Assembly: GCA_040900375.1 (NCBI GenBank)
Contig: JBBDZC010000003.1
Coordinates: 64,586 to 128,585 of the forward strand
Source of the DNA: Candidatus Anderseniibacteriota bacterium
GTDB taxonomy: Bacteria; Patescibacteriota; Andersenbacteria; UBA10190
Length of the DNA stretch: 64,000 nucleotides
Direction of reading: 5' to 3'
The translations under genes were made by a program, and so were the position numbers. Positions 30,523-57,678 of this stretch are shown here, piece after piece. The notes beneath the pieces were generated by a model. The model was not told the origin of the DNA and ran no database searches. It saw nothing but the letters and a program-made list of their open reading frames with translations. The number at the start of each line of letters is the position of its first letter. Positions within the stretch are counted from its first letter, which is position 1.

Positions 30523-31159
30523 GGACTGATAACCAGACACAGACTCGTGCCAGTTGCGGCAGAGGACTTTCTTGAAAATCGTCCACAAACAGCGCGGCTC
30601 GAGTTTTTTCTTCATATAAAATTAAACCTACGTCACCTTGCTTCTCGTTCTGTGCAATCCGATAGTTACCTTGGGCGTAGGCGGCATCAAATGATTCAGT
30701 AAAGAGACGTGGTGCGGTATCTTTTTGATTATGAGAGATCTCCCTACCGTCGAATTGTACTTCAATATTCCCATCCAAGAGTGCGGGGGGTGTAAGTAAG
30801 AATTCAGCTTCTACAATACCCATAGTATCAACAGGGCTCTGCCATTCCTGAACGAGATTTTCATTGCGCATGAGTCGCACGGTAATCGGCAAACTACCGC
30901 TCGAGATGTATATTGGAATACGTATTTTGTTCACTAAGGTAGGTTCTTCCATTTTTATCGTCTGCGTTACAATGAATTGCGCATAGACTGGCAAACCCAA
31001 TTCTGGTTCACGTGAAGCGTCAATCGCTACAGCGGGTTGTTCAACGAATTCTCGAAGTTGCCATATGCCGATACCGGCACTTACCACTACCAAGCAAGCG
31101 GAAATCATGGATAGGAAATACTGTTTCATTTCTTTGCCTGACGATACGTGTAAAACCAA
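30440..31159 (-). CDS. membrane-anchored hypothetical protein carrying a standalone copy of the recurring GT-C-associated soluble module
   Basis: 239 aa. A single N-terminal TM helix ('YFLSMISACLVVVSAGIGIW') is followed by a soluble domain whose pattern resembles the module found on seven GT-C proteins ('AQFIVTQTIKMEEPTLVNKIRIPIYISSGSLPITVRLM...EAEFLLTPP...DGNIEVQF'). The C-terminal 27 codons overlap the convergent epimerase gene, so the 3' end is uncertain. The true start is probably Met 31129. Confidence 0.45.
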   Translation of the reverse strand: MVLHVSSGKEMKQYFLSMISACLVVVSAGIGIWQLREFVEQPAVAIDASREPELGLPVYAQFIVTQTIKMEEPTLVNKIRIPIYISSGSLPITVRLMRNENLVQEWQSPVDTMGIVEAEFLLTPPALLDGNIEVQFDGREISHNQKDTAPRLFTESFDAAYAQGNYRIAQNEKQGDVGLILYEEKTRAALFVDDFQESPLPQLARVCVWLSVLTLIAALPHSLTRRAAHTAADTSQQTF

Positions 31160-31303
31160 AAGACACTAAGAAGAATACCTAAACACGTTACCATAAGGCT
31201 CCATGTAATAACTATTGGTCGATACCATATGAGCAGCGTGGCAGGTTTATCAACGGCCAAAGAGACGCGTAGAAATTATGCTCTCTAGGCGAGTAGGTAA
31301 GAT

Positions 31304-34213
31304 ATGCTAGTATGTTTGGTATCTAAATCTATGTCGTTTCTTACGGCCAAAATTTTTCCATATTTTCTGCAAAACCGGGCGGGCTTAGCACTACTTTTCC
31401 TGACCTGGCTGATTTTTTTTAGCCCGCTTATTATTGGCGGCAAAGTTTACTTCTTGGATGACTTAAAGATCATCTATTATCCCCTCGAACAGGCATATGC
31501 CGAGGCACAAGCGGCTGGCACGTTGCCTCTCTGGAATAATGAATTTGGTTTTGGTCACCCCTTACTGGCGTGGGGACAATTAGGCTTCTTCACCCCGCTT
31601 CATCTCCTCCTGCGTGCGCTCCAGGTTCCGCCCCTATGGCTCTTGCAGATCTCGGTTGTCACCTACTATGCCGCAGGCTTGCTAGGAATGTTTGTCTGGC
31701 TCCGCCGCCGGGTTTCCAGTATGGCCGCCGCTCTTGGCAGTATTGTCTATGTTTTTTCCGGTTTTCACATTGGCCACTTAAACCACGTTAACTTTTACAC
31801 CGCCACGATGGTCTTGCCGTGGCTGATCTTGAGCCTCGATACCTTTATTGTCAGACCGACAATACGCAAGGCTTTGCTCGTCAGTAGCCTCGGCGCCATT
31901 ATGGCCTTGAGTGGCCAACCCCAGATTGTTCTGTATGCTGCGATTCTCACCGCTGTGATCGCCTTATTTCTGCTCGGTGAACAATGCTTACTTCGCCCCG
32001 CCCGCTCAACCTGGGCCATGAAGATTATCGGCTGGGGTTTGTTGTCAGTCGTGATTGCTCTAGCCTTGAGCAGTTTCGCTCTTCTGCCTCTTTATGAACT
32101 ACTGCCGCAAACCGAGCGCAACGATGCATTGCCTGAATCAGTCCTCTATGAATTTAGTTATCCTCCCTATCACGCTGTCACGCTCCTCTTGCCATACTTC
32201 TTTGGGGACCACGCACACTATTGGGGGCCGAAAGGCTTCCAAGAGTTAGCCGCCTATGTGGGCATCATCCCGCTCTTGCTCACCGGCTTGAGCGTCGCCA
32301 CGTGGTCAGATAAAAAAGCCCTGCGCTTAGGCGCCCTTACCCTCCTGATTATCAGTATCAGCTTTGCGCTGGGCCGCTACTCACCGCTCTACGTTTGGCT
32401 CGTGCAACAAAAGTTCCTGACGTCACTAGCTGTGCCTGGCCGATTCGTATTCTTCTTTGATTTTGCCATCGTCCTCTTAAGCGCCATAGGCCTCGATGAC
32501 CTGCTGCGGTTGCCGCAGCGTTCCCGAAAACAACGACTCATCAGCATAGGCTTAAGCTTAATCGTTATTAGTATCTTGATGGCGCCTTTGTTGATCCAGA
32601 TCCAGACCGACACCCGGCTCTATGAGCGCTTGCTAGAGTTAGTCGCCAGTGGTGATAGCCACGGCATCCTCGCCCTCCTCGGCCTTGTTCTCTTCTTCGC
32701 TGCCCTAGCTATCATTACACTTAAGCCACGCTACCAACAACACGCGCAGTTTGCTCTGTTGTCCATCGCGGCTCTAACCTTAATCGTCTTAGGTTGGCAC
32801 TACAATCCCCGTGTTGACCGCACCGTCGCCACTACGCCGTCGCCTTTTACTCGCCACCTGGAACAATATCGTGCGGAGACTGGCCTTCCCGCCCGTCTTT
32901 ACAGTGCCGAAAGTATTCTGGCCAAGCTGCCAACTAATGTTAGCATCCGGGCGACCGAGCGCATCTCTCCCAGCTTTACCGTTCACCAGTTAATCAAAGT
33001 ACGTAAAGAAAACCTTTCCTGTCTGCAAATCCCGGTACAGGTGAACCATCGCTTTGCCGGCACGGTTCACATTACGCTACGTGAAGATTTTACTACCCCC
33101 ATCCTCCAAGCCTATGATTTCCCGCCGGATAAGCTCTCCGGGGAACAACCTCTTGAACTCTGCTTCCCCATTTTAGCCGCGAGTGTAGGCAAAACATTTG
33201 TGCTTTCCTTCGCCAGCGAACTGCCAAGCCCGCTGGAACTCTCCTACACTTCATATAACCAAGAAGAGGAACCCGCTTACTTTGTACGTGTGGCTAACCC
33301 TACCCCAGAACAACTGCGCAACTCAAAAAAGCAAGCGCAAATTATATTTACTTCCTTTTATCCGCACACAGGTGACCTCGAAGCAACACTCCTTGCCCGC
33401 CACCTCAATGTCACGGCCGGTGCCTCAAGCGCGCGGTGGATTGGCGCCCTGTCGCTGGGCAACTACCGCGCTTTTATTGAGCACTTCTTTGCCAATGACC
33501 GTGAGCCATTCGATGGTGACGGTATTCATGCTCTCGTTAGCTTCCGCCACATTTTAAACATGGCCGGCGTCACCCACCTGATTCAGTCGCTGCCGCTCGG
33601 CGCCGACGACAGCCTCCTAGAAACTGGTTACACGCTCCTCGCCAAGTATGATTACGGACCAAAAGAGGTGCGGCTCTACCGCAATCCCAGTGCCTTTCCT
33701 AAAGCTTTTCTAGTCAACCGAGCAATCTTTAAACCAGCCGCGGACGAGACGCGCTACGCCATGCAATATGAACCGTATGATCCCCAAGAGCTCGTGTATA
33801 TTGACGGGCCAACCCCGCCAACCGAACTTAGCCCTAGTACCTCTCTGCCCGCCGCCGGCACGGTTAAACTCCTCTCGTACACTCCCCGGCAAGTTGAGGT
33901 CGAGGTCAATACTAGCCAGCCCGCTTTCTTAGTCGTCAGCGACAGCACGACTCCCCAATGGCAAACATTTATTGATAACCAGCCGGCTCCTTATTTCCGC
34001 GCTAACTCAATTTTTAAAGCCGCCCAAGTCTCGAGCGGCAATCACATAGTGTCTTTTCGTTACTTTTCTCCTGCCGTGGCCGCCGCCCAGATCATCACGC
34101 TGGTAGCAATTGGGATCACCCTTTTGCTGGCGCTGCTTCCCAGTTTAGGTAGGTGGTACTGGCGCAGACAGGCAGCAGCAATCAAAGCAAAGCCTCGTGA
34201 TACTTCACTGTAG
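31304..34213 (+). CDS. YfhO-like GT-C membrane glycosyltransferase with internal soluble module
   Basis: 969 aa. The N-terminal region 'GGKVYFLDDLKIIYYPLEQAY...GTLPLWNNEFGFGHPLLAWGQLG' resembles the YfhO family 'lP.W....G.G' loop. It has many TM helices. There is a soluble module copy at about nt 32960..33260 ('ISPSFTVHQLIKVRKENLSCLQIPVQVNHRFAGTVHITL...'). Confidence 0.6.
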   Translation: MLVCLVSKSMSFLTAKIFPYFLQNRAGLALLFLTWLIFFSPLIIGGKVYFLDDLKIIYYPLEQAYAEAQAAGTLPLWNNEFGFGHPLLAWGQLGFFTPLHLLLRALQVPPLWLLQISVVTYYAAGLLGMFVWLRRRVSSMAAALGSIVYVFSGFHIGHLNHVNFYTATMVLPWLILSLDTFIVRPTIRKALLVSSLGAIMALSGQPQIVLYAAILTAVIALFLLGEQCLLRPARSTWAMKIIGWGLLSVVIALALSSFALLPLYELLPQTERNDALPESVLYEFSYPPYHAVTLLLPYFFGDHAHYWGPKGFQELAAYVGIIPLLLTGLSVATWSDKKALRLGALTLLIISISFALGRYSPLYVWLVQQKFLTSLAVPGRFVFFFDFAIVLLSAIGLDDLLRLPQRSRKQRLISIGLSLIVISILMAPLLIQIQTDTRLYERLLELVASGDSHGILALLGLVLFFAALAIITLKPRYQQHAQFALLSIAALTLIVLGWHYNPRVDRTVATTPSPFTRHLEQYRAETGLPARLYSAESILAKLPTNVSIRATERISPSFTVHQLIKVRKENLSCLQIPVQVNHRFAGTVHITLREDFTTPILQAYDFPPDKLSGEQPLELCFPILAASVGKTFVLSFASELPSPLELSYTSYNQEEEPAYFVRVANPTPEQLRNSKKQAQIIFTSFYPHTGDLEATLLARHLNVTAGASSARWIGALSLGNYRAFIEHFFANDREPFDGDGIHALVSFRHILNMAGVTHLIQSLPLGADDSLLETGYTLLAKYDYGPKEVRLYRNPSAFPKAFLVNRAIFKPAADETRYAMQYEPYDPQELVYIDGPTPPTELSPSTSLPAAGTVKLLSYTPRQVEVEVNTSQPAFLVVSDSTTPQWQTFIDNQPAPYFRANSIFKAAQVSSGNHIVSFRYFSPAVAAAQIITLVAIGITLLLALLPSLGRWYWRRQAAAIKAKPRDTSL

Positions 34214-36319
34214 TAGGCGGTCGTCCTCTTCGGTGGCCTCCTGACTGCCTCGTAAATACCGCAAACGGATCGCTAGGTCGCCTGGCTTCTGCGCGGCAGC
34301 GGGAAAAGATGCGTCCGCGCTAATAAGCATGTTTGTTGGCCGATAATTAAAATCTCTCGCGTAGCGCAAGGTAGGCGCTTGCCCTAGTGTAGTTCCTTCT
34401 GCCTGGATCTCCACAAATACTTCCTGTCCTTTGAGTGATAATGTTTGCGGCAAACGAAGAGTGAGCCAGCGATTATCTTCTAGATCTGACACGGGTAGCT
34501 GCCACTCATAAATAATAGGCGCGAGTGGTCCGGCTTTCAATTTGACGATCAGCATGCCGCTCGTGGCTTTACCGCTATATGTCGCGAGCAAAAGATCGAG
34601 GCCAAGTAGCTCATCATACTCGATCATTACTACCTGGCCCACATGAAGACCTGGCACTAATTCTCCCACAACTTGCTCATAGACACGCTTCTCATACACC
34701 CAGGCAAACTCCTTGCCGGCAACATGGGCGACAAACACTGGTACTTTCTTTTTGAAGTATTCATCAATAAAGTTATTCGCATAGTGATCAGGTTCCCGCC
34801 CAAACATATTGCGGTAGACAACGATAAAACGAACCCTCCCCTGTTCATGCGCATTGATGTGAGCCACGTGCGCCGTCGTATATGTTCCCAGCTCCTCGGG
34901 ATACCACGAGGCAACGACTGCCTCTGGAGCATGAGCATCCAGCCACGCTCCCACTTGTTCCAAACCTTCACCCCAGCCTAGTTCTTGGCTCAAGTTGTCA
35001 GCAAACAGTGGATTACTATAGGCAATGGCATAAGGATGATACACATAAACCTGGCTGGCTAAGTAACCCACAACAACAATCGGCAAGATGAGATAAGCAG
35101 TAAGCAGCCACGATCTGGTTGCCGCTGTCCACTTTTCGGCAACTATGCTGCCCACGATCTTGGCTGCCATCACAATACCGGCAGCGGCGATCAGGTTGAG
35201 TGCCGGCCAGATCGGCAGAATGTAGCGGTCGCCCTTTTTTGCTCCCAAGGTCATCATGATGACGAAAAAAACAATGTAGGCTAATAATAACCAGAGAGTA
35301 GCGGTGGAGATAGCTAACGCTGTTGGTTGCCCCCGGCGGGCCCTGTTTGTCTGCCAAAGTATCACCCCTATAAAGAAAATCACAAAAATGTGAAGGACGG
35401 GGTTGACACGTGTTACCAAAGTAAAGAGATAGTGAGTCGGATTTAAAGTGTAGTCTTCAACCATGTGGTGAGGGGTCAGTGCCGCTCGTCCCAGATCGCG
35501 TTTTAGAACCAAAACATTTCCTTGCGGATCAGGAACCCACAAAATCGCGGGCCAAATGGTGACAAACATAACCACGACAATCAGCAACCACAAACCAAAA
35601 TCACGTAGCCTTTTCTTAAATTTTAGCCATGAGCGCATAGTGACTCCATCCGTTATGACAGCCAGCCAAAAAAACGGCACCATAAAAACCGCGGGTGCTT
35701 TCGTGAGCACTGCCAGACCAGTCAATACTGCCGAGATCACCAGGAAGCGGCGCGCAAAGTGTGACTGTCGGTAAATAATAGTCGCCAGTACAGCCGCAAA
35801 TAAAAAGTGAGCCAGGAGCGCGTCAACATGGGCCACCCGAGAATAACCAATTAAGAACGGATCAAGGGCTATCATCAGCGTTCCCAATAAGGCTACGGAG
35901 CGGTTCCCCAACAGACGCCGCAGCAGGATATAGGTTACGGCAATAAGGAAAGTGATTACTAGAGCTACTGAAAATTGCGCCGCCGTTACAAAGTAAATAA
36001 GGCTAGCAAACGAAAAAGGCACGCCTACGAAAAACATTTTGATCATGACTGCCCCCCCAATGAGCCACAGTGCCGTGACACCCGGATGAGTGGTCTGGAG
36101 CATGTCATTGAACCGAAAATCTTTAAAAGCTTGAATAAACTCATACGAACGGCCAATCCAATTCTTTTCGTCAGCAGTTAAAAATAGGCCCAGATCAAGC
36201 AGCCGTGGCAGCCCGGCTACAACCAGAAGCACGCCGATAATAAATATGTCGACGCGGTACTGATGGAACCAAGCCCCTACAGTATTTTTATTTATTCGCA
36301 TAGGCGCCAAGGTACGCAT
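34205..36319 (-). CDS. GT-C glycosyltransferase, PMT/ArnT-like ('LTADEKNW' loop-1 motif) with C-terminal soluble module
   Basis: 704 aa. The first periplasmic loop is 'LDLGLFLTADEKNWIGRSYEF'. 'GDRYILP' is present and there are at least 11 helices. The C-terminus '...KEFAWVYEKRVYEQ...GQVVMIEYDELLGLDLLLATYSGK...' is the recurring module. Confidence 0.65.
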   Translation of the reverse strand: MRTLAPMRINKNTVGAWFHQYRVDIFIIGVLLVVAGLPRLLDLGLFLTADEKNWIGRSYEFIQAFKDFRFNDMLQTTHPGVTALWLIGGAVMIKMFFVGVPFSFASLIYFVTAAQFSVALVITFLIAVTYILLRRLLGNRSVALLGTLMIALDPFLIGYSRVAHVDALLAHFLFAAVLATIIYRQSHFARRFLVISAVLTGLAVLTKAPAVFMVPFFWLAVITDGVTMRSWLKFKKRLRDFGLWLLIVVVMFVTIWPAILWVPDPQGNVLVLKRDLGRAALTPHHMVEDYTLNPTHYLFTLVTRVNPVLHIFVIFFIGVILWQTNRARRGQPTALAISTATLWLLLAYIVFFVIMMTLGAKKGDRYILPIWPALNLIAAAGIVMAAKIVGSIVAEKWTAATRSWLLTAYLILPIVVVGYLASQVYVYHPYAIAYSNPLFADNLSQELGWGEGLEQVGAWLDAHAPEAVVASWYPEELGTYTTAHVAHINAHEQGRVRFIVVYRNMFGREPDHYANNFIDEYFKKKVPVFVAHVAGKEFAWVYEKRVYEQVVGELVPGLHVGQVVMIEYDELLGLDLLLATYSGKATSGMLIVKLKAGPLAPIIYEWQLPVSDLEDNRWLTLRLPQTLSLKGQEVFVEIQAEGTTLGQAPTLRYARDFNYRPTNMLISADASFPAAAQKPGDLAIRLRYLRGSQEATEEDDRLLQ

Positions 36320-36352
36320 GCAGACACGTTATTCTCTCTAAACTAGAAATGC

Positions 36353-36535: not shown

Positions 36536-36540
36536 TAAAT

Positions 36541-36972: not shown

Positions 36973-37014
36973 AATCTCTTCAATAGTATACCCAGGTCAG
37001 AGTATAGTGCAGGC

Positions 37015-38598
37015 ATGCACCGGAACACAGAAAAGATAGCGATTATTATCGGACTGCTAGCCATGATTATCGCGCCGCGGATCTTTGACCTCGATGCCTT
37101 CCTCACCGCTGACGAAAAACGGTGGGTCGCCAACACTAATGGTTTTGTGATGAAGCTGGCTGCTCGGCAGTGGGACAATCTATTGCAACAACCCCATCCT
37201 GGTATCACGACCCAGTGGTTTGGTGCGCCCACTATTTTTTCGGACTCATGGACAATACGCAAGTTACCTCTAGTTTTGGCCCAAAGCATATTAGTCCTTC
37301 TCATCGGCTATATTTTTTGGCGACTATGGGGAACCCTCCCGGCCATCCTGCTGACTCTACTCCTTGGTCTTAATCCTCCCCTGGTTGCTCACACTCGCGT
37401 TTATGCCATGGATTCTCTCTTGGCTTTATTTTTGCTCTTGTCCCTTGGGTGCTTACTCACCTGGAAAAAATATCAGCAATGGCAGTACCTGGTTTTTGCG
37501 GCGGGGGCGGCAGCGGCAGCTATCCTCTCAAAACTGCCCGGAATTTTGATCCTGCCGTTTACTCTATTATTTCTTCTGTGGCACGCTCTCTCCACTAGAC
37601 GTTATCGCCACACATTGCGAGCGCTCGCTCTATGGAGCCTCATATTGCTCACCAGCCTCGTCTTAATTCTTCCTTCGTTGGCGACAAATACACAAAATGT
37701 CATCAACGAATTCCGCAGCTTCTTTGACTCGGATGACTATCAGGAACTACACCAAGAAGAACCCACCTACTACCTGCGCTCGTTGATCTTTTTCTCTACT
37801 CCCCTTCAATTGTTCTCCCTCGTTTTACTGCCGCTGACTGCTATCTGGCTTTACTACCGCCAGGTGGTACCAAAAACACAGATTTCACGGGCGGAAGCAA
37901 TCTGGCTCATACTGTTCGGTATCAGCTTCGTCGCTATGATGAGCCAGGGTCTAAAAAAAGGCGACCGCTACGTTTTGCCCGCTTTTCTTATATGGGATAC
38001 CGTCGTAGTTATAACAGTTTGGTGGTTATTGACCATTATTCGGCATGATGTTTTCCAGCTTACCAGTTTGCTTAGAATCAACAAACAAGCGGGTGACGCG
38101 CCGGGGGACCCGACCCCAAAGCATCATTCATCACATCTTGCAGCAAACTACCTACCCACTCTCTGGATCGGCGGGGTGGTGCTTATGCTCATCCTGCAGG
38201 CTGCTACCCTCTGGCAGCTCCATCCCTATGCTTTAGCCTATGTCAATCCTCTGACTAAACCCTTCTTCGGCGAACGCCGTTTAGGCTGGGGTGAGGGTTT
38301 AGATCTAGCCGCCTTATATCTTGGCGCTCAACCTGATAGCAAGCACTTAAAAGTGGCGGCTTACTATCCCATTGAATTCTCACTGCATTTTCCTGGCGAA
38401 GTCGTACCGGCCCATCAACATGAGCATGAGAGTGTTGACTACATAGTCCTCTACCGGGCGATGTATGAACGAGGCCCCCAAGCTTGGGAAACCGATGTTT
38501 TGCAGTATTATAAAGACAAGACCCCAGAAAAAGTGATCAGTTTAAACGGCATTGAGTACGTGTGGATTTATTCGCAGTCACCAAGTAGTCATGATTAG
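37015..38598 (+). CDS. GT-C glycosyltransferase, PMT/ArnT-like ('LTADEKRW' motif)
   Basis: 527 aa. 'DLDAFLTADEKRWVANTNGF', 'KKGDRYVLP' and a C-terminal 'NGIEYVWIYSQ' parallel 34205..36319 and 52898..54979. Confidence 0.65.
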   Translation: MHRNTEKIAIIIGLLAMIIAPRIFDLDAFLTADEKRWVANTNGFVMKLAARQWDNLLQQPHPGITTQWFGAPTIFSDSWTIRKLPLVLAQSILVLLIGYIFWRLWGTLPAILLTLLLGLNPPLVAHTRVYAMDSLLALFLLLSLGCLLTWKKYQQWQYLVFAAGAAAAAILSKLPGILILPFTLLFLLWHALSTRRYRHTLRALALWSLILLTSLVLILPSLATNTQNVINEFRSFFDSDDYQELHQEEPTYYLRSLIFFSTPLQLFSLVLLPLTAIWLYYRQVVPKTQISRAEAIWLILFGISFVAMMSQGLKKGDRYVLPAFLIWDTVVVITVWWLLTIIRHDVFQLTSLLRINKQAGDAPGDPTPKHHSSHLAANYLPTLWIGGVVLMLILQAATLWQLHPYALAYVNPLTKPFFGERRLGWGEGLDLAALYLGAQPDSKHLKVAAYYPIEFSLHFPGEVVPAHQHEHESVDYIVLYRAMYERGPQAWETDVLQYYKDKTPEKVISLNGIEYVWIYSQSPSSHD

Positions 38599-42095: not shown

Positions 42096-42160
42096 GCTGC
42101 AAGGGTAAAGTTTACCCTGCATCTTTGCAAAATAGATCCCTTCGGTGCGAAGATCAGAGA

Positions 42161-50064: not shown

Positions 50065-50093
50065 GTCTTTAAAACTACCGTAATCGTGACCGT

Positions 50094-51404
50094 CTACTCA
50101 AGCGGCCTTACCCGCCGCCACCAAGAGGAAGAAAAATTGGGGTCGACATGCCGACTAAATTCCTGCCACCGCGGATAGTACGTGCAAAAGCTTTTGGTTG
50201 ACATGCGCGCATCTTTAGCCGGGTAGACCGCCCCACTGGCATTCCCTACTAACTGATCAAATTTTTCCAGAAGCTTAAGAGTTCGTATCCCCCGGAAGGG
50301 AAAATCAAGCGCCAGCACAATCCCCGGTCGCGGAAAAGATAGTAACCCCGGAGAATTACTCTCGCCAAACGTCTTGAGCGAGGCTAAATATGAACTTAAG
50401 CCCTTGGCAGCCATTACTTGCAGCATAGTTTGCATAACCGCGGTGGCCGCCTCATGGGGCACCACACACTGGTACTGCAAAAAGCCGCGTTTGCCATATA
50501 ACCGATTCCAATGCTGCAAGCTATCGAGAGGGAAAAAATAGGGCTGGTAGTGCGCTAAGTATTTCTTTTTGCGTCCTTGACGCTGTTGATAGAGCCAGTT
50601 AAACACCTTGAGGCTGTAGTCGTTGAGGAGCCAGTTTGGCATGATGAGGGGAATACTTATTGCCCTCCCCCGCGCCGCGTGCTTAGCCACTTTGTGCTGG
50701 CTGTGGTTTCCTAGCATTAGGACTCCCCGGCTCCGTACATGTCTGCGCCAAACCACTCCATCAAACTGCCCGATTAGATATTCATGACTATCCTGATACT
50801 CACCTATTAAAGAGAAAAATTCCTCTAGGTTACTAAAAGGAATAGTAGTGACTTCGAGGTAGGGAGTTGGCAAGGGCTTAAGTTGTATCGCCGCCCACGT
50901 GATCAAGCCGGTCAGGCCTAGACCCCCAATTGTCGCCGCAAAGAGAGGCGCATTACTGGTAGGGGCGCAGAGATAGCGTTGGCCATCAGAGCGTAGCAAT
51001 TCAAAGCGGAGAACATGGCCCCCAAAACTACCAGCCCGCCGATGGTTTTTACCATGGATATCATTAGCAATCGCGCCCCCGAGCGTCACAAATTGCGTGC
51101 CCGGTACGACGGGCAAAAACCAGCCGCGGGGCACGAAAGTATCAAGGATATCTTTCAATGTCACTCCCGCTTCCCCACACAACACGCCAGTGGCCTCGTC
51201 AAAAGATATAAAGCGGTCAAGCGATGAAGTATCAAGAAGGTAACCGTTTTCATTTAAGCAACTGTCTCCCTGACTCCTTCCGAGACCATAAGGCAGGAGG
51301 CTTCCCTGCAGCAGGGGGCGCAAATCATTCGGTCGCCAATGTAAGACCCGAGCTTTCTGGTGAGTAGCCACCGGGTATCGGCCCCAGGATTCATGCCGCG
51401 CCAT
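50094..51404 (-). CDS. dprE1: FAD-dependent decaprenylphosphoryl-beta-D-ribose 2'-oxidase-like (DprE1 ortholog)
   Basis: 436 aa. 'GLGRSQGD' is the FAD-binding PCMH motif. 'LPVVPGTQFVTLGGAIANDIHGKNHRRAGSFGGHV' parallels Mtb DprE1 '[35 protein letters not shown]'. 'GFLQYQCVVP' parallels 'GFLQYQFVIP'. Confidence 0.8.
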   Translation of the reverse strand: MARHESWGRYPVATHQKARVLHWRPNDLRPLLQGSLLPYGLGRSQGDSCLNENGYLLDTSSLDRFISFDEATGVLCGEAGVTLKDILDTFVPRGWFLPVVPGTQFVTLGGAIANDIHGKNHRRAGSFGGHVLRFELLRSDGQRYLCAPTSNAPLFAATIGGLGLTGLITWAAIQLKPLPTPYLEVTTIPFSNLEEFFSLIGEYQDSHEYLIGQFDGVVWRRHVRSRGVLMLGNHSQHKVAKHAARGRAISIPLIMPNWLLNDYSLKVFNWLYQQRQGRKKKYLAHYQPYFFPLDSLQHWNRLYGKRGFLQYQCVVPHEAATAVMQTMLQVMAAKGLSSYLASLKTFGESNSPGLLSFPRPGIVLALDFPFRGIRTLKLLEKFDQLVGNASGAVYPAKDARMSTKSFCTYYPRWQEFSRHVDPNFSSSWWRRVRPLE

Positions 51405-52845
51405 AGTAATAACTTGCTCCTAAAACAACCAGCATGGCACAAGCCGCCACGAGGTAACTGACAGTATCGCGCATAGCAAAGATCAAGGGATCATCTTCCA
51501 GTACTCCGCGGTGGGCTAAAAACCATATACGACTAATCCAATAAAGCTGTAGCGGCACTAAAAGCCATAACAAAATCGGCGTTTGGTAGAGAGAATAGAT
51601 TTCCTCGCTGCTGATATAGAGGGCTAAAATAACAGCCGCCAAGTAGCCGCTGGCGATGCCGATTTGTGCCAGAGGGATACTGTCGCTTACAGTATATCCC
51701 CGGCCATGAGCATTGCTGGCTGTCGCCTCGAGGTGCTTGAGTTCGCTAAATCGCTTCACAACTGCCAGGCTCAAAAACAAGAACATACCAAAAGCTGTCA
51801 GCCATGATGAAACCAGCACGAGGGTGGCCGCCGCACCCGCGTACAAGCGGATCGTGTAGAGCACAGCGAGCAGAAAGACATCGACTAAAATAATCTGTTT
51901 CAGTAAAAAAGAATACAATAACGTCAACCCGAGATAGAGTGTCAGCAACCAGACAAACGATGCGGGCAACAAGGTGCTCACACCAAAACTGGCAAGTAGC
52001 AAGAGAGGCACAGCGAAAAATCCTATACTTAAAGACAAGGTCCCCGCGGCAAAGGGGCGGTATCGCTTGCGGTGGTGCCGGCGATCCGCCTCTAAATCCA
52101 GGAGATCATTGAGAATGTAGACACTCGACGAAGCCAGACAAAAAGCGAGAAAGGCCAAGAGTGCATTATAGACTAGCGTAAGCTCTGTTACTTTGTGCGC
52201 CGCCATCAGCGGTACAAAAATAAGGATATTCTTTGGCCACTGGTGCCATCGCAGTGCCTGCAGCCATCTAGTCACACGCTTGCTTCTGTTCCCAAAGATT
52301 GAGGTCACATAGGTGGCCTGCCGGGCTCTGGTAATAAGCCAGGGATTACTGCTCACCACAATTCCCTCACCTGCCTTCGCCCAAACTGCTAAATCAGATG
52401 GGGCATTACCTGCGTAGGCAAATTTCCGCTCGCCAAATTTTTTGACCAAGGCTTGAGCTTTATGGCTTCCTTTAAAATTCAGGGTGGCTGATGAGGCAAC
52501 CACCCCCGTAAAGATCCCGAGGTGTCGCGCCACTTGCTGGGCAACCACGACCGAAGACGCCGTGGTCAGAAAAAGTGGCCGCCGGGTGGCGTGTTGTTGC
52601 CGCAAGTATGTCAATAAATCTGTGTTATAGGGCAAATGCTTAACCGACAACGCTACCCGTGTCGCCACCTGGTGTTTACAGTAGGCCCGACCCTTACAAA
52701 GCCACCATCCAAGGGCACCGAGGTAAAGCGGATTGCGTTTAAGCAAGGCAACAACTAGCTCAATAAAAGTATCAGTCCGGACTAGTGTACCATCCATATC
52801 AACACACAATGGCAGGCCAGCAGCAAAAGAATACTTGGGCTTCAT
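51391..52845 (-). CDS. HAD-phosphatase domain fused to UbiA-family polyprenyl-phosphate phosphoribosyltransferase (Rv3806c-like)
   Basis: Start set at Met 52845 ('MKPKYSFAAGLPLCVDMDGTLV'). The N-terminal ~200 aa carry HAD motifs I 'DMDGT' and IV 'GNAPSD'. The C-terminal ~290 aa are polytopic with the UbiA 'NDLLDLEADRRH' Asp-rich motif. Confidence 0.7.
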   Translation of the reverse strand: MKPKYSFAAGLPLCVDMDGTLVRTDTFIELVVALLKRNPLYLGALGWWLCKGRAYCKHQVATRVALSVKHLPYNTDLLTYLRQQHATRRPLFLTTASSVVVAQQVARHLGIFTGVVASSATLNFKGSHKAQALVKKFGERKFAYAGNAPSDLAVWAKAGEGIVVSSNPWLITRARQATYVTSIFGNRSKRVTRWLQALRWHQWPKNILIFVPLMAAHKVTELTLVYNALLAFLAFCLASSSVYILNDLLDLEADRRHHRKRYRPFAAGTLSLSIGFFAVPLLLLASFGVSTLLPASFVWLLTLYLGLTLLYSFLLKQIILVDVFLLAVLYTIRLYAGAAATLVLVSSWLTAFGMFLFLSLAVVKRFSELKHLEATASNAHGRGYTVSDSIPLAQIGIASGYLAAVILALYISSEEIYSLYQTPILLWLLVPLQLYWISRIWFLAHRGVLEDDPLIFAMRDTVSYLVAACAMLVVLGASYYYGAA

Positions 52846-52897
52846 GTAGGATATAGTTACTCGACCGATCACTATACTCTTAGGGGCTATAGGACCG

Positions 52898-54979
52898 TCA
52901 ATCCTCGCTCGGTGGCAGACGATAAGCAATATCTCCGGACTGGCTAAATTGCTCCATTCGCTCGCCGGTTCTAAGCTCTCGCCGTCGCCAGAACATGTCG
53001 CCGGGTAATGTGTCAGTCGTCATAAATTTTACCGTTATTGCATCTCCCGCAATTGAGTCAGGGCTACTCAACGCCACATAGTAGGTTTTATTGTCGTTAT
53101 CAGTAAGCGGCGCAAAGGCAAAGCGGTGCCAGTTACTATCGGCAATCTCGCGCGCATTGACACGCACTGTCCGCAGATCCTCCGTCGCGTTAACGTCCTC
53201 ACGAATATGTAAAATAACATCATGGGTATTGCGTCGGCTACTAAAAGTAGCCAGCCCGATCTCAATGCTATTCCAGTTCTTCGGCACTTGCGGCAGGCTC
53301 TGACCTACCTCATGACCCTTCACTAGTTCTCCCGTGTGACGCGTAAAATAAGCCAAACCCACTTGATTGTAAATCCAGACGTATGGCTTGCCACCGATAT
53401 AGACGACATGTTCCGGTTCCCGGTCGCGCAGTTCTTCCAGGACCGAGGTGGCAATATCATCTTGTTCTCGCCCGCCCATGTTGCGGTACACCACCACAAA
53501 ACCGACGCGTTCATCATGACGAGAGCTTAAGCTTAACGTCGTGCCCTTAAAGAAGGTTCTCATTACTCCTGGATACCAGCTGGCAATATAAAGATTAGCA
53601 TCAATTAAAGGATGATTATTTAACCAGTGGGCCGCTTGATCTAAACCTTCTCCCCATCCCTCTTGGCTACGATGACGAACATTAAAGATCTGATTTTCGT
53701 ACGCAATCGCGTATGGTCGCCAGAGGAGGGGTTGTAACACTACGGCCATCACGACCACGCTGGCCACGACTGGTACCAGAAGTTTAGGCCCGTGCCGCTC
53801 CCCGCGGGGCGCGAGTCGAGACCACGCTATCGCCAGGACCGCCCCGGCTATCACCGGCAGTACCACTAAAGTTGGCAGGGCGTAGCGATCACCCTTTTTA
53901 GCCACAAAGGTGATCAGCGCTAAGAAACCAAGAGCGTAGAGCAGTAAAATAACAATGGGGCTTTTAGTAATCATTTGGAGATTAACAAGCCTCTGCCGTG
54001 GCGATACCACCGCTAGTAGCAGCGCGATTGGTAAGCCTAGGCTTACCAAGAGACTAAGGGGCATTGCTCGGGCAGCCACTGTTCTTAAGTAAAATGTCTG
54101 GGGGTTAATAGGATCAGTTGAGGCAGCCAGCGCAATGTGTTCATCAGTTGCAATCGCGATCGCATCGTCTTTATAAGATGTCGTCAACCCTTCGGTATAA
54201 TTTTCATTCTGGAGCTTTGTCGGCGACCAGAAGGCCGGGCAGAGCACTAAAAATGTAACCACTGCCACCAGCAGCCAAACTACAAGCGCCGTGGCGATCT
54301 GGGGCAATCTTTTTCGGGAATTAAAACCTTGCCAGAGCACTAGTAAGCTGCCAAATGCTACCAACCAGAGCGCGGGCAAAAGCTTGGTAGCTAGAGCAAA
54401 ACCTAGCATTATTCCTGATAACAGTAATCCCCAGTGTCGGCCGCCCGCATCTTTAAGGTAGGCCAGCAACGCCACCGTCGCCCCAAGCAGCGAGAGAGCC
54501 AGCAGCGCATCAAGATGGATAATTTGGCTTAAGCCTACAGTATAGGGATCAGCAGCCAAAAAAAGGCCTCCGAGCCAACCGGGCTTCAGTCCCAAGAGCC
54601 ACGTCAACCAATATGTGATGAAGCCAACCAGCAAGGCCGTCATCAAGGTCACTGGCAGCTTTGCTACTTCATAAAAATCTTTTACCCGGCTGTCGTCGAG
54701 ATGAACATCTACTCCCTGCCACTTTGCCTGGGCCGTAATCCCGCCACCAGCCAACCACATGAGTGTGGTCCCAGGATGAGTCGTCATAAAGGTATTACTG
54801 AAATCGCCCTGCAGCACCTCGTGCCAATACCATGAGCTGCGTAAGACCCACCGGTCTTCATCAGCTGTCATTATATCCCCAAGCCCCCACAAACGCACCA
54901 CCGCAGCGACTAGTAAAACACTTATAACTATGAACACACGAGGGAAACGAGCGCCAATACGCCACGATAAATTAGACAT
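52898..54979 (-). CDS. GT-C glycosyltransferase, PMT/ArnT-like ('MTADEDRW' motif) with C-terminal soluble module
   Basis: 693 aa. 'LGDIMTADEDRWVLRSSWYW', 'KKGDRYALP' and 'GGKPYVWIYNQ', then the module 'WNSIEIGLATFSSRRNTHDVILHIREDV...HRFAFAPLTDNDNKTYYVAL'. Confidence 0.65.
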   Translation of the reverse strand: MSNLSWRIGARFPRVFIVISVLLVAAVVRLWGLGDIMTADEDRWVLRSSWYWHEVLQGDFSNTFMTTHPGTTLMWLAGGGITAQAKWQGVDVHLDDSRVKDFYEVAKLPVTLMTALLVGFITYWLTWLLGLKPGWLGGLFLAADPYTVGLSQIIHLDALLALSLLGATVALLAYLKDAGGRHWGLLLSGIMLGFALATKLLPALWLVAFGSLLVLWQGFNSRKRLPQIATALVVWLLVAVVTFLVLCPAFWSPTKLQNENYTEGLTTSYKDDAIAIATDEHIALAASTDPINPQTFYLRTVAARAMPLSLLVSLGLPIALLLAVVSPRQRLVNLQMITKSPIVILLLYALGFLALITFVAKKGDRYALPTLVVLPVIAGAVLAIAWSRLAPRGERHGPKLLVPVVASVVVMAVVLQPLLWRPYAIAYENQIFNVRHRSQEGWGEGLDQAAHWLNNHPLIDANLYIASWYPGVMRTFFKGTTLSLSSRHDERVGFVVVYRNMGGREQDDIATSVLEELRDREPEHVVYIGGKPYVWIYNQVGLAYFTRHTGELVKGHEVGQSLPQVPKNWNSIEIGLATFSSRRNTHDVILHIREDVNATEDLRTVRVNAREIADSNWHRFAFAPLTDNDNKTYYVALSSPDSIAGDAITVKFMTTDTLPGDMFWRRRELRTGERMEQFSQSGDIAYRLPPSED

Positions 54980-54984
54980 GAGGA

Positions 54985-57678
54985 CTAGGGACTATTCTTC
55001 CGTCGGTAAAAGGTCAAGGTATTTGAACCATTTTCAATTCCCTTGACTGACTCAAAATCACGCTCCAAACCGGCCTCAATTTCCGAGTACTCCATCAGGA
55101 ATGAGAAGCTGGTCTGACTATCAAGCAAGAACCACTGCGTGTGGCGATACGCCTCAAGCATGGTTTCCACTGGTGGTAGAAAAGTATTAAGGCGCTCCGG
55201 ATCTTTTCGGGTAAATTCGTAGGCGTACCAACGCGGGTGAGAAATATCAAGCGCCGTGTGGTGACCAGAAAGATAGGCAACCAGTGACGAGCCCGTGAAA
55301 ATTGGTTGATCAAGAGGAATATTATCACGTGCCCACACGCCCGCTTCATAGGCTGCTCGTTGTGTAAAAGTACCCGTGTGCTCATAGAGAAAAGTAATGT
55401 AATTCGATAAAAACATGCTCCACAGCAAGACCAGGGCCGTGACACTCGATATGATCTTAGTAACAAATACTGTCCAGGGATAGCCGTTTTCCAACTGCGA
55501 GAGAGTACTCATGATCCGCTGCCACATCAGAAGAGCTCCGGCACCCGCAACGATTGCCAGTGGGGGCAAAAACTCATTCAAATAGTTAGCGTGAAATTTA
55601 ATCCAGTTACTGTAGAAAAATATCAAACCGCCGAGCCATACCGGCAGCAACAGGATAACGCTCACCGACACCGGGCTGTTCGCAGACACACTCAAAAACG
55701 GCGGTGTGGTCACCTTCTTCAAGCTACCAATAATATTAGGCAAGGCGTGGTGCAAAGGTTGCGTGCTGCGTTTAATAGTACTTTTCTCCTCGAAAACAAA
55801 CTGTTCTGACTGCGGCCGGGGCCAGCAAGCAACCAGCACCAACATTCCCCCCATCAAGTACCACAGAAGTGTCATACCATAGAACATAAAGGCACTGCCT
55901 TCATATTCAAAAAAGAATTGCCAACACCACCAAAAGGCAGCCAAGGGGAAAATCCAGACTATTTTCGGGACAACATGCTCAAGCAATGCCCGGGTAAAAG
56001 GCGAGGGCCGTTCTCGCAGTGCCCGGCGCACCAAGTTTCGGGAAAACGTTTCGAGCAACAAACCCCAGCCCAATAAGGAGAGAAAAATAAGCGGTAAGGA
56101 TTCACGGAAGAAAGGTGTCATTCCCCGGAGCGAGTAACTACGAGTTTTCTCGGCTTCACTCGGATCGAGGCTAATAGTTCCGTCAGTCGCTGAATTTACT
56201 CCCAACGCCTCCCACAAACCTTCTAGACCATAGACTTGGTAAGCCGACCACAAGAAGGCTCCCACGACTAACATGAAGCCAATGCCAACCAAGAAACAGT
56301 AGTGCAGCCGCTGGCGCCAAGAAACACCATGGACCGCAATAAAAAGCAAGGGCAAAACGCCCAGCGCCAGAATACTCTTACGGGATATCACGCCTAAACC
56401 AAGCAGCATGCCGGCACCAATAAGCTTGAGGTTAGAGGGCCCATGAGCAGACAAGGAGGGAGAAGCAGAGAATGCCGGCTGACGGACTGCCTGCCACAAT
56501 ACCGCTAACCCCATAATGCCAAAAAAGAGAGCCAGTGGTTGAGTGTGGGCATAGACATTGGCGAGCACGGCAGCGCCAAATAACGACCACACCGCCGCCG
56601 CCATAATGCCTGTCAAGCGATTTTTAAGTTGGCACCCCAGACTATAGATAGGAAAAATTGTTAAAGCCCCGATGACAATCGAAGACAGTCGGCCAGCGAT
56701 AATGGTGTCTCCCAGTAAAAATTGCCAGAGCGCCATCCAGGCAATTACCAAAGGCGCTTTAACATAGCCATCCCCTCCGGCCAGTATTCCTTGGCGTAAA
56801 CTGCGCGCGTCATAGAGGTAGTTGCCCTCATCTTCAGTCACTGGTAGTTCACGCGCATAGAGTATCCGCAAACCGACTGCGACAACAAACAAAAATATGA
56901 GCAGGAATATGACCGCTCGCCGTGAAAGGGCCGCCGGCGTGCCTTCAGATTCACTCCGCCGGCTCATGGCAATCAACAGGAGTAAAAACAATAACCCAGG
57001 CACCATAGTTTTGCCTACAATCTCGTAATGGCTGCGCTGATCATCCCAGTTCACAATAAAGGAGTAGACTGCCTGGCGGGCGGCGTTGATAACTGCTACC
57101 CGCAAGGGCACTGTGTGGTAGCTCGCAAAGCCCAGATCCTGGGTAGGTTTGCCAGAAGGAGCAAGATTTTGTGGCGCCGTAACATCCCTGCCCCGCCCGC
57201 GGACAATAAAGGCGGTCCCCAAATGATAGGGATTGCGACTATCTACATCAACTGTTACAGCATTCCCCGGTACACTACTAGGTGAAACAACAAAGAAGAA
57301 GAAATTCTTACCTTCACTATCCGCAATCGGTTCAAATTCAAAGCGATAAAATTGATTGTCACCTAAAAGATGAGGCGCAATCGCCACGCGTCGTAAATCT
57401 TCACGCGCTTCGAGAGACTCACGGAGATGAAAATGGATCGGTTGCGTATTGGCGCGATTGGAATAGGTCGCAAACATTACCGCCACACCTGACAGATAAT
57501 TGTGTTCGGATTTGAATGTCTGCCCGATTAAAACATCTCCGGTAAGTTCGCCTGCATTCGTAGTATAGCTCGCTTGCTGAACCGTCCGCTCGCGAACGAC
57601 TATGAACTGTGCTGCCAAGGTAAAGATCGCTAGAAGGCAGACGGCAGCCAGCGCCATGATTTTTGTTGCCGGTGTCAT
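54985..57678 (-). CDS. large GT-C glycosyltransferase with N-terminal soluble module
   Basis: 897 aa. An N-terminal TM is followed by the module 'IGQTFKSEHNYLSGVAVMFATYSNRANTQPIHFHLRE...YRFEFEPIADSEGKNFFFFVV'. Then comes the loop motif 'ELPVTEDEGNYLYDA' and more than 12 helices. Confidence 0.6.
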   Translation of the reverse strand: MTPATKIMALAAVCLLAIFTLAAQFIVVRERTVQQASYTTNAGELTGDVLIGQTFKSEHNYLSGVAVMFATYSNRANTQPIHFHLRESLEAREDLRRVAIAPHLLGDNQFYRFEFEPIADSEGKNFFFFVVSPSSVPGNAVTVDVDSRNPYHLGTAFIVRGRGRDVTAPQNLAPSGKPTQDLGFASYHTVPLRVAVINAARQAVYSFIVNWDDQRSHYEIVGKTMVPGLLFLLLLIAMSRRSESEGTPAALSRRAVIFLLIFLFVVAVGLRILYARELPVTEDEGNYLYDARSLRQGILAGGDGYVKAPLVIAWMALWQFLLGDTIIAGRLSSIVIGALTIFPIYSLGCQLKNRLTGIMAAAVWSLFGAAVLANVYAHTQPLALFFGIMGLAVLWQAVRQPAFSASPSLSAHGPSNLKLIGAGMLLGLGVISRKSILALGVLPLLFIAVHGVSWRQRLHYCFLVGIGFMLVVGAFLWSAYQVYGLEGLWEALGVNSATDGTISLDPSEAEKTRSYSLRGMTPFFRESLPLIFLSLLGWGLLLETFSRNLVRRALRERPSPFTRALLEHVVPKIVWIFPLAAFWWCWQFFFEYEGSAFMFYGMTLLWYLMGGMLVLVACWPRPQSEQFVFEEKSTIKRSTQPLHHALPNIIGSLKKVTTPPFLSVSANSPVSVSVILLLPVWLGGLIFFYSNWIKFHANYLNEFLPPLAIVAGAGALLMWQRIMSTLSQLENGYPWTVFVTKIISSVTALVLLWSMFLSNYITFLYEHTGTFTQRAAYEAGVWARDNIPLDQPIFTGSSLVAYLSGHHTALDISHPRWYAYEFTRKDPERLNTFLPPVETMLEAYRHTQWFLLDSQTSFSFLMEYSEIEAGLERDFESVKGIENGSNTLTFYRRKNSP

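What the first reader, a model, noticed from the sequence alone, without database searches (positions are those of the whole stretch)
30649..57560. A recurring soluble module of about 110 aa, shuffled to N-terminal, internal or C-terminal positions on at least seven GT-C proteins, with one standalone membrane-anchored copy
Seen in sequence: the same pattern recurs across eight proteins. It runs GQxF-(6-8)-L-x-G-V-h-h, then an alternating hydrophobic stretch ending in h-x-L-R/K, then a '(F/Y)xFxFxP(I/L)xxSxGKxh(F/Y)hxh' strand. N-terminal copies sit directly after the first TM helix in 54985..57678 (about nt 57198..57560), 42161..44452 (about 42296..42641) and 46319..48715 (about 46454..46844). 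C-terminal copies are in 52898..54979 (about 52939..53314) and 34205..36319 (about 34249..34609). There is an internal copy in 31304..34213 (about 32960..33260), a degenerate C-terminal copy in 3326..5425, and a standalone copy on the single-pass protein 30440..31159 (about 30649..30994). Inference: the alternating hydrophobic pattern suggests a beta-sandwich. Its position, always predicted outside the membrane on the same side as the GT-C active loops, suggests it binds carbohydrate, binds an acceptor, or acts as a ruler, analogous to the C-terminal CBM-like domains of EmbC and AftD. Its mobility among three different GT-C subfamilies is notable, and I cannot assign it to a named domain family.
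Basis: seen in the sequence. Interest (0 to 1): 0.65.

Follow-up and report, generated by a model that had tools for sequence, protein, structure and literature searches.

The report
Unnamed beta-sandwich module on membrane glycosyltransferases
A real, widespread but so far unnamed 130-residue beta-sandwich domain is attached in different positions to membrane sugar-transferring enzymes of this uncultured bacterium, and most likely holds the cell-surface sugar chain that those enzymes extend.

Summary
A family HMM built only from outside sequences hits five window proteins at the stated places: A 1e-47, D 1e-44, E 3e-24, F 7e-13 and C 1.5e-11. The best of 7,056 decoys scored 7.4 bits. Copy B and the standalone protein H are diverged members, shown by profile-profile comparison (97% and 96% probability). 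The 'degenerate' copy in 3326..5425 is not supported.

The family is large: 1,972 clusters at 50% identity, mostly in Chloroflexota and Patescibacteria, and also in Firmicutes, Actinomycetota and an archaeon. It has no dedicated Pfam or NCBIfam model, only marginal overlap with DUF6212 and DUF4082.

AlphaFold gives a confident all-beta sandwich (pLDDT 95). Its nearest structural neighbours are weak: CBM36/6/32, lectins and phage tail receptor-binding domains.

N-terminal copies are TM-module-TM hairpins, and H is the same hairpin on its own. It is two-pass, not single-pass.

The module most likely binds the acceptor glycan, as the carbohydrate-binding modules of EmbC, AftD and GT136 ORF12 do. 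This is inferred, not shown. Copies A and D lie in an operon with DprE1, DprE2 and DPPR-synthase homologues.

Verdict: a new, unnamed family of a known kind of accessory module.

The parts
57118..57558 (-). Module copy A (aa 41-187 of ORF 54985..57678), the N-terminal and most canonical copy.
   Evidence: External-only family HMM gives 152 bits, E 1e-47. AF2 model has pLDDT 95.1. It lies between TM aa 10-28 (57595..57651) and TM aa 220-238 (56965..57021).
52916..53332 (-). Module copy D (aa 550-688 of ORF 52898..54979), C-terminal on a PMT_2-type GT-C.
   Evidence: Family HMM gives 142 bits, E 1e-44. Pairwise match to A is E 1e-18. The core matches PMT_2 weakly (22.5 bits, below the 26.1 cut-off) and matches E at 1e-70.
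34253..34666 (-). Module copy E (aa 552-689 of ORF 34205..36319), C-terminal on a PMT_2/PMT GT-C.
   Evidence: Family HMM gives 79 bits, E 3e-24. It is the only copy above the Pfam DUF6212 threshold (30.2 bits against 26.4, profile positions 113-194 of 395).
32960..33292 (+). Module copy F (aa 553-663 of ORF 31304..34213), internal in the large extracytoplasmic region of a YfhO-family protein.
   Evidence: Family HMM gives 42 bits, E 7e-13. The core matches YfhO at 51 bits. The orthologue in L003 has the module at the same place.
46454..46843 (+). Module copy C (aa 46-175 of ORF 46319..48715), N-terminal, on an unclassified polytopic membrane protein.
   Evidence: Family HMM gives 38 bits, E 1.5e-11. 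It is flanked by TM aa 10-28 and 191-209, followed by a 16-aa loop with 5 K/R. The core has no Pfam, NCBIfam or PDB match.
42296..42658 (+). Module copy B (aa 46-166 of ORF 42161..44452), a diverged N-terminal copy on a YfhO-like protein. It lacks the family's invariant Gln and the 'D.Y..G' loop.
   Evidence: Orthologues P0177, P0187 and P0176 hit the family HMM at the same position. The orthologue profile matches the family at 97.2% probability, E 3.6e-11. Shorter paralogues, including 44449..46344, lack the segment.
30599..30994 (-). Module copy H (aa 56-187 of ORF 30440..31159), a standalone TM-module-TM hairpin protein. The database annotates it as 222 aa starting at Met18.
   Evidence: hhalign against the family gives P 2.5e-4 over 126 columns. 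Against the B-type N-terminal cassette it gives 96.3%, E 1.7e-9 over 186 columns. TM helices lie at aa 15-33 and 203-221. All 14 homologues are 202-257 aa.
49327..52929 (-). Context for copies A and D, in the same strand run. Three genes for a polyprenyl-phospho-pentofuranose donor: a HAD phosphatase + UbiA phosphoribosyltransferase fusion (51391..52929), a DprE1 homologue (50094..51404) and a DprE2 homologue (49327..50064).
   Evidence: PDB sequence matches: DprE1 4aut at 2e-67, DPPR synthase 8j8j at 6e-25, DprE2 21gq_C at 2e-22. Pfam gives HAD + UbiA, FAD_binding_4 and adh_short.

Best explanation
The recurring segment is a genuine, autonomous domain of about 125-140 residues. It folds as an all-beta, jelly-roll-like sandwich and belongs to a large family that no database names.

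In this Candidatus Andersenbacteria genome island for cell-surface glycan synthesis, it sits on the outer face of the membrane in four arrangements:
- as a TM-module-TM hairpin fused in front of a lipid-linked-sugar glycosyltransferase core (A, B, C);
- inserted in the large outer region of a YfhO-type enzyme (F);
- at the C-terminus of PMT_2/ArnT-like enzymes (D, E);
- as the same hairpin on its own (H), encoded next to a YfhO-type enzyme.

Most likely it is a non-catalytic module that binds the acceptor glycan. It would hold the growing or finished surface polymer near the GT-C active site, raising local acceptor concentration and perhaps setting acceptor specificity or processivity. The CBMs of EmbC, AftD and the GT136 enzyme ORF12 work this way. 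H would supply that function in trans.

What is shown: homology of the copies, the fold, the membrane arrangement and the distribution. What is inferred: the binding function.
For: Domain reality:
- The external-only HMM hits A, D, E, F and C at 1e-47 to 1.5e-11, and decoys reach at most 7.4 bits.
- B and H join through profile-profile comparison.
- The family has 1,972 clusters at E<=1e-3 and 542 at E<=1e-10.

Fold:
- The AF2 model has pLDDT 95.1 and nine to ten strands.
- Foldseek neighbours are CBM36, CBM6, CBM32, CBM61, lectins and the CE2 esterase beta-sandwich.
- BFVD neighbours are phage minor-tail and tail-fibre proteins at TM 0.6-0.71.

Company it keeps:
- Carriers include PMT_2/PMT, DUF2142, YfhO, DUF1616, DUF6541 and DUF7657. 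Single cases carry Acyl_transf_3, GDSL, PA14 and GT4/WsaF domains.
- Tandem arrays of two or three copies and shuffled positions occur, as is typical of CBMs.

Topology:
- A, C and H are TM-module-TM with a short K/R-rich return loop.
- 24 of 27 external N-terminal carriers have the same arrangement.

Other points:
- One Gln is invariant, and Arg, Asn, Thr, His and Asp are conserved in a set of closer family members, which suggests a defined polar site.
- D has the same architecture and gene context as C. youngae ORF12. ORF12 is an ArnT-like GT-C with a C-terminal beta-rich CBM of about 150 aa, encoded next to a HAD-UbiA synthase. That CBM was shown to bind the acceptor O-polysaccharide (PMC11127046).
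- The H gene is always divergent from a YfhO-type gene, and the E-F-H-x-O block is conserved in L001 and L003.
Against: - No binding data exist for any member.
- Structural matches to CBMs are weak (best PDB E 4e-4, TM 0.4-0.64) and generic for beta-sandwiches.
- No sequence relation to any solved CBM was found, and Emb and AftD are absent from the top 50 fold hits.
- The ORF12 CBM was dispensable in vivo (PMC11127046), so such modules may matter little.
- Copy B has lost the invariant Gln.
- PMT_2-type enzymes may glycosylate proteins rather than glycans.
Confidence: 0.55

Rival explanations
1. The module recognises acceptor proteins such as pilins, S-layer or surface proteins rather than glycans. 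It would act as the substrate-selection domain of protein O-glycosyltransferases.
For: Many carriers are of the PMT_2/PMT type, a family that includes protein O-mannosyltransferases. In Pseudomonas, Araf donor pathways serve pilin glycosylation (PMC11127046). Beta-sandwiches often bind peptides.
Against: The module is also fused to YfhO, DUF2142, acyltransferase-3, GDSL and GT4/WsaF enzymes, which act on polymers. Tandem arrays are more typical of CBMs. The surrounding island carries Wzx-like and EpsG-like polysaccharide genes.
Confidence: 0.15
2. The module is a structural or regulatory element. It would mediate oligomerisation or docking between GT-C enzymes, with H as an accessory subunit, or act as a lid or ruler over the active site without binding free glycan.
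For: H is conserved beside a YfhO-type gene. The B (with module) and B2 (without) tandem pair recurs elsewhere, reminiscent of heteromeric GT-Cs. The ORF12 CBM was dispensable for catalysis.
Against: The same domain sits on at least six unrelated cores, at three positions and in tandem arrays. That is hard to reconcile with one co-evolved protein interface. The conserved residues are polar, not a hydrophobic patch.
Confidence: 0.15
3. The module binds the lipid-linked donor head group or a metal ion and so takes part in catalysis.
For: An invariant Gln and conserved Asp, Asn and His could coordinate phosphate or a cation. Some neighbours (CBM36, CBM6) are Ca-dependent.
Against: GT-C donor sites lie in the membrane-proximal core, and paralogues without the module exist (44449..46344, 37015..38598). 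The module also occurs on non-GT-C enzymes and standalone.
Confidence: 0.05
4. The similarity is compositional or chance, and there is no shared domain.
For: Pairwise comparisons other than A-D are not individually significant. The G copy is not supported.
Against: The external HMM gives E-values of 1e-11 to 1e-47 against decoys at 7.4 bits or less. The family has 1,972 clusters. The AF2 fold is confident.
Confidence: 0.01

Closest known systems
C-terminal CBM of the GT136 pentofuranosyltransferase ORF12 (Citrobacter youngae O1; Kelly et al. 2024, PMC11127046)
   Same: It is a beta-rich domain of about 150 aa at the periplasmic C-terminus of an ArnT-like GT-C, encoded beside a HAD(PRP)-UbiA(PPPRS) fusion, and Araf variants of the system have DprE1/E2. 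Copy D (693 aa, module at 550-688, immediately upstream of the HAD-UbiA, DprE1 and DprE2 homologues) has the same layout.
   Different: ORF12's CBM is described as Ig-like. The present family also occurs N-terminally, internally, in tandem and standalone, and mostly in Chloroflexota and Patescibacteria.
EmbC C-terminal lectin-like CBM and the Emb/AftD periplasmic jelly-roll domains (PMC3044687; PMC7305291)
   Same: These are non-catalytic beta-sandwich domains on the outer face of arabinofuranosyl GT-C enzymes. From my own recollection, the Emb proteins have one domain between TM1 and TM2 and one at the C-terminus, which would parallel the N-terminal hairpin and C-terminal copies here. The same kind of donor pathway (DprE1/DprE2/DPPR synthase) is encoded next to A and D.
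   Different: No sequence match to any PDB chain at E<=10. Emb and AftD are not among the top 50 Foldseek hits. This is a different family in different phyla.
Pfam DUF6212 (PF19717) and DUF4082 (PF13313)
   Same: Copy E and 5 of 66 family members match DUF6212 at profile positions of about 111-194. Four of 66 match DUF4082 at E of 2e-4 or weaker. The relation is probably remote.
   Different: Both are uncharacterised DUFs. DUF6212 is a 395-position model of which only about 80 positions are shared. Six of the seven window copies and 61 of 66 sampled members match neither. No literature describes a function for either.
Phage tail receptor-binding jelly-roll domains and CBM36/CBM6/CBM32 modules
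   Same: These are the nearest folds by Foldseek: BFVD TM 0.6-0.71, and PDB 9euf_0 at TM 0.64 and 8zdp_v at 0.62. All are surface-glycan-recognising beta-sandwiches.
   Different: Sequence identity is 6-19% and E-values are only 1e-5 to 1e-2. This is generic fold similarity, not membership.

Membership tests
The module family itself (defined here by an HMM of 162 external domains) | Significant match over most of the 129-position profile. | tested here: met
   A, D, E, F and C match at E 1e-47 to 1.5e-11. B and H match only through profile-profile comparison. G does not match.
Pfam DUF6212 (PF19717) | Score above the gathering cut-off of 26.4 bits. | tested here: inconclusive
   Met only by copy E (28.0 bits in the protein, 30.2 bits as an isolated module, profile positions 113-194 of 395). 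The other six copies give no hit, and 5 of 66 external members match at E<=0.01.
Pfam DUF4082 (PF13313) | Match to the profile at or above its threshold. | tested here: not met
   No window copy matches at E<=10. Four of 66 external members match weakly, best E 2e-4.
EmbC/AftD-type CBMs and any CBM with a solved structure | Detectable sequence homology to a solved CBM chain. | tested here: not met
   A profile of 66 modules against all PDB sequences found nothing better than E 0.28, and those hits were unrelated lectin fragments.
EmbC/AftD-type CBMs and any CBM with a solved structure | Close fold match (high TM-score, low E-value). | tested here: inconclusive
Carbohydrate-binding module (CAZy sense) | Demonstrated carbohydrate binding by the isolated, non-catalytic domain. 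| not testable with these tools
   No experimental data exist for any member. Literature searches found none.
GT136 ORF12 C-terminal CBM | Sequence homology to ORF12 residues 503-652. | not testable with these tools
   The sequence is in neither the paper nor its supplement. The cited phage record is absent from the collection.
GT-C glycosyltransferases (the carriers) | Match to a GT-C family profile (PMT_2/PMT, YfhO). | tested here: met
   E matches PMT_2 at 32.2 bits and PMT at 26.0. F matches YfhO at 51.1. D scores 22.5, below the cut-off, but matches E at 1e-70. A qualifies through full-length orthologues that hit PMT_2 at 32-44 bits. B qualifies through orthologues carrying PF09586.
GT-C glycosyltransferases (the carriers) | The same test applied to carrier C (46319..48715). 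| tested here: not met
   No Pfam, NCBIfam or PDB match. It is polytopic with an acidic loop after the first core helix, so GT-C is inference only.

The most novel reading that the evidence does not exclude
The TM-module-TM hairpin is a self-contained, portable 'acceptor-recognition cassette'. It can be fused in front of a polytopic glycosyltransferase without disturbing its topology, duplicated in tandem, or encoded separately (H) as a specificity subunit acting in trans. On this reading, Patescibacteria and Chloroflexota programme which surface polymer each GT-C extends by swapping cassettes. A and D would then build an arabinofuranose-containing surface glycan in a CPR bacterium.
Probability: 0.2. 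Interest if true: 0.7.

Novelty: new member of a known kind. Interest (0 to 1): 0.5.

Why it matters
GT-C enzymes build essential envelope polymers, yet how they choose and hold their acceptors is known for only a few cases (EmbC, AftD, GT136). This work defines a large accessory-domain family of about 2,000 clusters at 50% identity, currently annotated only as 'hypothetical'. The family marks extracytoplasmic glycan-building enzymes in poorly understood phyla: Patescibacteria, Chloroflexota and some archaea.

The small standalone form gives a soluble ectodomain that could be expressed for binding and structure work. A confident model and an HMM now exist, so a new Pfam or CBM family could be seeded.

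The adjacent DprE1/DprE2/DPPR-synthase operon suggests that arabinofuranose glycans are made in a CPR bacterium.

Tried and rejected
- A single-sequence AF2 run on H gave a poor model (pLDDT 45.7). It was used only for strand order and the two terminal helices.
- The word-indexed homologue search with the 5-module profile found only 7 proteins. The exhaustive representative search was needed.
- The G C-terminus gave nothing in four tests: the family HMM, hhalign against the family, hhalign against the YfhO C-terminal region, and a metagenome scan for homologues.
- ORF 8744..10831 gave weak phmmer hints but no HMM or hhalign support.
It was redone with 10 closer sequences, so the taxonomic sample is biased to one peptide pattern.
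- tblastn of D and of a family consensus against the plasmid collection, and of the consensus against the phage collection, found no match.
- I tried to obtain a GT136 ORF12 sequence to test homology and could not.
- Cluster names for 10 diverse members were all 'hypothetical protein' or absent.
- The weak HMM hit on 46349..46600(-) is the antisense frame of copy C and was dismissed as an artefact.
Full report
**Source and setting.** The window is identical to a 191,595-bp contig of a MAG named Candidatus Andersenbacteria bacterium (Patescibacteria/CPR). H and B are its hypothetical proteins WEA04_00475 and WEA04_00510. Almost the whole window is a cell-surface glycan island. It holds many GT4 and GT2 transferases, sugar epimerases/dehydratases, methyltransferases, a Wzx-like flippase, an EpsG-like protein, two AsnB-like amidotransferases, and about a dozen large polytopic membrane proteins.

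**Checking the observation.** I label the carriers as follows:
- A = 54985..57678(-)
- B = 42161..44452(+)
- C = 46319..48715(+)
- D = 52898..54979(-)
- E = 34205..36319(-)
- F = 31304..34213(+)
- G = 3326..5425(-)
- H = 30440..31159(-)

Pairwise, only A-D is strongly significant (E 1e-18). A-E (0.006) and C-E (0.1) are marginal. An HMM iterated inside the six-frame translation of the window grows from A+D to E, then to C and F, and stops there.

A profile of these five searched exhaustively against 1.84 billion representative proteins found 1,972 clusters at E<=1e-3 and 542 at E<=1e-10. I then built an HMM from 162 external domains only. It hits A (152 bits), D (142), E (79), F (42) and C (38) exactly at the stated positions, and hits nothing else in the window. 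The best of 7,056 shuffled or reversed decoys reached 7.4 bits. These five copies are certain.

**Copies B, H and G.** B is not hit directly. B's full-length homologues fall into a long class (about 740-840 aa) and a short class (about 560-660 aa). The short class lacks the N-terminal 130 residues and includes the neighbouring paralogue 44449..46344. Three long-class orthologues hit the family HMM at the equivalent position (5e-9, 1e-5, 1e-4). The profile of 57 long-class N-termini matches the family at 97.2% probability (E 3.6e-11, 129 columns). B is therefore a diverged copy. B itself has lost the family's invariant Gln and the 'D.Y..G' loop.

H has 14 homologues, all 202-257 aa. Their profile matches the family weakly but collinearly (P 2.5e-4, 126 columns). 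The shared motifs are VTQT against GQTF, and AYPxGNYRIAQNEKQGDIAL against D.Y..G...GDLAF. The H profile matches the whole N-terminal TM-module-TM region of the B family at 96.3% (E 1.7e-9, 186 columns). Controls gave E 0.11 and 0.16. H is a member, and specifically a free-standing version of the N-terminal cassette.

G's C-terminus found no support in any test.

**Anatomy.** Hydropathy and the positive-inside rule give the following layouts:
- A and C: TM, module, TM, a 16-residue loop with 4-5 Lys/Arg, then the polytopic core. B has the same TM-module-TM start, but the return loop was not resolved.
- H: helices at about 15-33 and 203-221 around the module. It is a two-pass hairpin, not single-pass. 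The low-confidence AF2 run agrees on the two terminal helices and on six strands in register with A's strands.
- D and E: the module follows the soluble C-terminal region of a PMT_2/ArnT-like core.
- F: the module lies in the long soluble region between the last core helix and a C-terminal anchor.

All seven copies are thus predicted to be extracytoplasmic. This is an inference from topology.

Among the 154 best external proteins there are 45 C-terminal, 28 N-terminal, 13 internal and 11 multi-copy carriers, plus 57 proteins under 300 aa. Of 27 single-copy N-terminal carriers, 24 are TM-module-TM. Of 40 proteins of 190-300 aa, 24 have helices on both sides. Tandem cassettes and TM-(module)x2-3-TM proteins also exist. 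A rough NJ tree of 166 modules needs at least 17 changes of position class.

**Carriers.** The cores in the window fall into groups with no mutual phmmer similarity: {D, E, 37015..38598}, {B, 44449..46344}, F, A, C and G.
- E and D are PMT_2-type.
- F is YfhO.
- B is YfhO-like through its orthologues.
- A is PMT_2-type through 45-50%-identical full-length orthologues that pass the Pfam threshold.
- C is unclassified.

Outside the window the module is fused to PMT_2/PMT (24 and 7 of 68 carriers), DUF2142 (6), YfhO (4), DUF1616 (4), DUF6541 (3), DUF7657 and DUF6798. Single cases carry acyltransferase-3, GDSL, PA14, and a helix-free protein with two GT4/WsaF domains.

A pattern-limited genome scan found 35 loci. 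Most are in Chloroflexota, with others in Andersenbacteria and Saccharibacteria. Single cases come from Clostridiaceae bacterium 35-E11 (a cultured isolate with four module genes in a row), Eubacteriales, Actinomycetota, Cytophagia, a gammaproteobacterium and a Methanotrichaceae archaeon, and two from Omnitrophota.

**Fold and known families.** AF2 on copy A with a 66-sequence alignment gave pLDDT 95.1 and pTM 0.90, an all-beta sandwich with one short helix.

Foldseek against the PDB gave only weak hits (best E 4e-4, TM 0.34-0.64). They include viral jelly rolls, phage baseplate and central-fibre proteins, the beta-sandwich of CE2 esterases, CBM36/6/32/61 and lectins. Emb and AftD were not in the top 50. 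BFVD gave phage minor-tail and tail-fibre proteins at TM 0.6-0.71. The profile finds no PDB sequence at E<0.28.

Pfam results:
- Only copy E passes DUF6212, on 80 of its 395 positions.
- Five of 66 sampled members touch DUF6212, and four touch DUF4082 sub-threshold.
- NCBIfam has nothing.
- Neither DUF has any functional literature.
- Sampled members are named 'hypothetical protein'.

**Context bearing on function.** A and D head a same-strand gene run that continues with three genes:
- a HAD + UbiA fusion (DPPR synthase 8j8j, 6e-25);
- a DprE1 homologue (4aut, 2e-67);
- a DprE2 homologue (21gq_C, 2e-22).

This is the donor pathway for polyprenyl-phospho-arabinofuranose. The HAD(N)-UbiA(C) order equals that of C. 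youngae ORF15 (PMC11127046). In that experimentally studied system, the ArnT-like GT-C ORF12 carries a C-terminal beta-rich domain of about 150 residues. That domain binds the unmodified O-polysaccharide in vitro, although it is dispensable when the enzyme is over-expressed. D has the same layout.

The H gene is divergent from a YfhO-type gene in all related loci read. The block E-F-H-x-(EpsG-like 27795..29237) is conserved in L001 and L003.

**Interpretation.** The module is best explained as a non-catalytic domain that binds the acceptor glycan. It is deployed as a portable unit on, or beside, extracytoplasmic glycan-building enzymes. Supporting this are the fold class, the variety of catalytic partners all acting on envelope glycans, tandem repetition, positional freedom, conserved polar residues including an invariant Gln, and the parallel with ORF12, EmbC and AftD. 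None of this is direct evidence of binding. I put the functional assignment at about 0.55 and the reality of the domain at above 0.95.

The rivals are recognition of acceptor proteins, a docking, ruler or regulatory role, and donor or metal binding.

**Novelty.** Accessory beta-sandwich or CBM domains on GT-C enzymes are an established concept. What is new is a large, unnamed family, its TM-hairpin cassette form with a free-standing version, and its concentration in Patescibacteria and Chloroflexota. I therefore rate it a new member of a known kind, of moderate interest.

Noticed in passing
49327..52929 (-), with A and D upstream at 52898..57678: This is a complete homologue set of the mycobacterial DPA donor pathway: a HAD phosphatase + UbiA phosphoribosyltransferase fusion, DprE1 and DprE2. 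It lies in one strand run with two GT-C genes in a CPR (Andersenbacteria) genome. This suggests an arabinofuranose-containing surface glycan or glycoprotein. No paper in the library links DprE1 with Patescibacteria.
   Followed up: partly
42161..44452 (+) and 44449..46344 (+): These are tandem paralogues (E 3e-168) that differ mainly by the presence or absence of the N-terminal TM-module-TM cassette. A long and a short homologue (P0170, P0191) appear to share a 26,892-bp contig elsewhere, judged from contig length only. A heteromeric pair is possible.
   Followed up: partly
27795..36319; loci L001 (629..10380) and L003 (2902..10314): The gene block is conserved: a PMT_2 enzyme with a C-terminal module (E), a YfhO enzyme with an internal module (F), the standalone hairpin H, a variable small gene or epimerase, and a 456-484-aa protein (EpsG hit in L001 only). 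The H gene is always divergent from a YfhO-type gene.
   Followed up: yes
L017 (Clostridiaceae bacterium 35-E11, CP121688.1, 578581..590931): Four consecutive genes carry the module: 563 aa, 1039 aa, a 201-aa standalone form and 856 aa. This is a cultured organism with a complete genome, so clusters of several module genes are not peculiar to the window.
   Followed up: partly
External protein P0121 (1174 aa): It has two GT4/WsaF-like domains plus two module copies and no predicted TM helix. Here the module is probably cytoplasmic, an exception to 'always outside'.
   Followed up: partly
30440..31159 (-) and 41924 vs 42161 (+): Start codons differ from the mechanical ORF list. The database annotates H as 222 aa from Met18 (the ORF list gives 239 aa from TTG). 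It annotates B as 763 aa from 42161 rather than from the upstream ATG at 41924.
   Followed up: yes
10834..12732 (+) and 40218..42122 (-): Two asparagine-synthase-like (AsnB) amidotransferases each sit next to a large polytopic membrane protein (8744..10831 and B). They may amidate sugars in the glycan.
   Followed up: no
46349..46600 (-): The antisense frame of copy C gives a weak hit to the module HMM (E 0.02-0.1). This is taken as an artefact of antisense translation.
   Followed up: no
48754..49293 (+): An inorganic pyrophosphatase gene lies beside the PRPP-dependent donor operon. It could pull the phosphoribosyl transfer forward.
   Followed up: no
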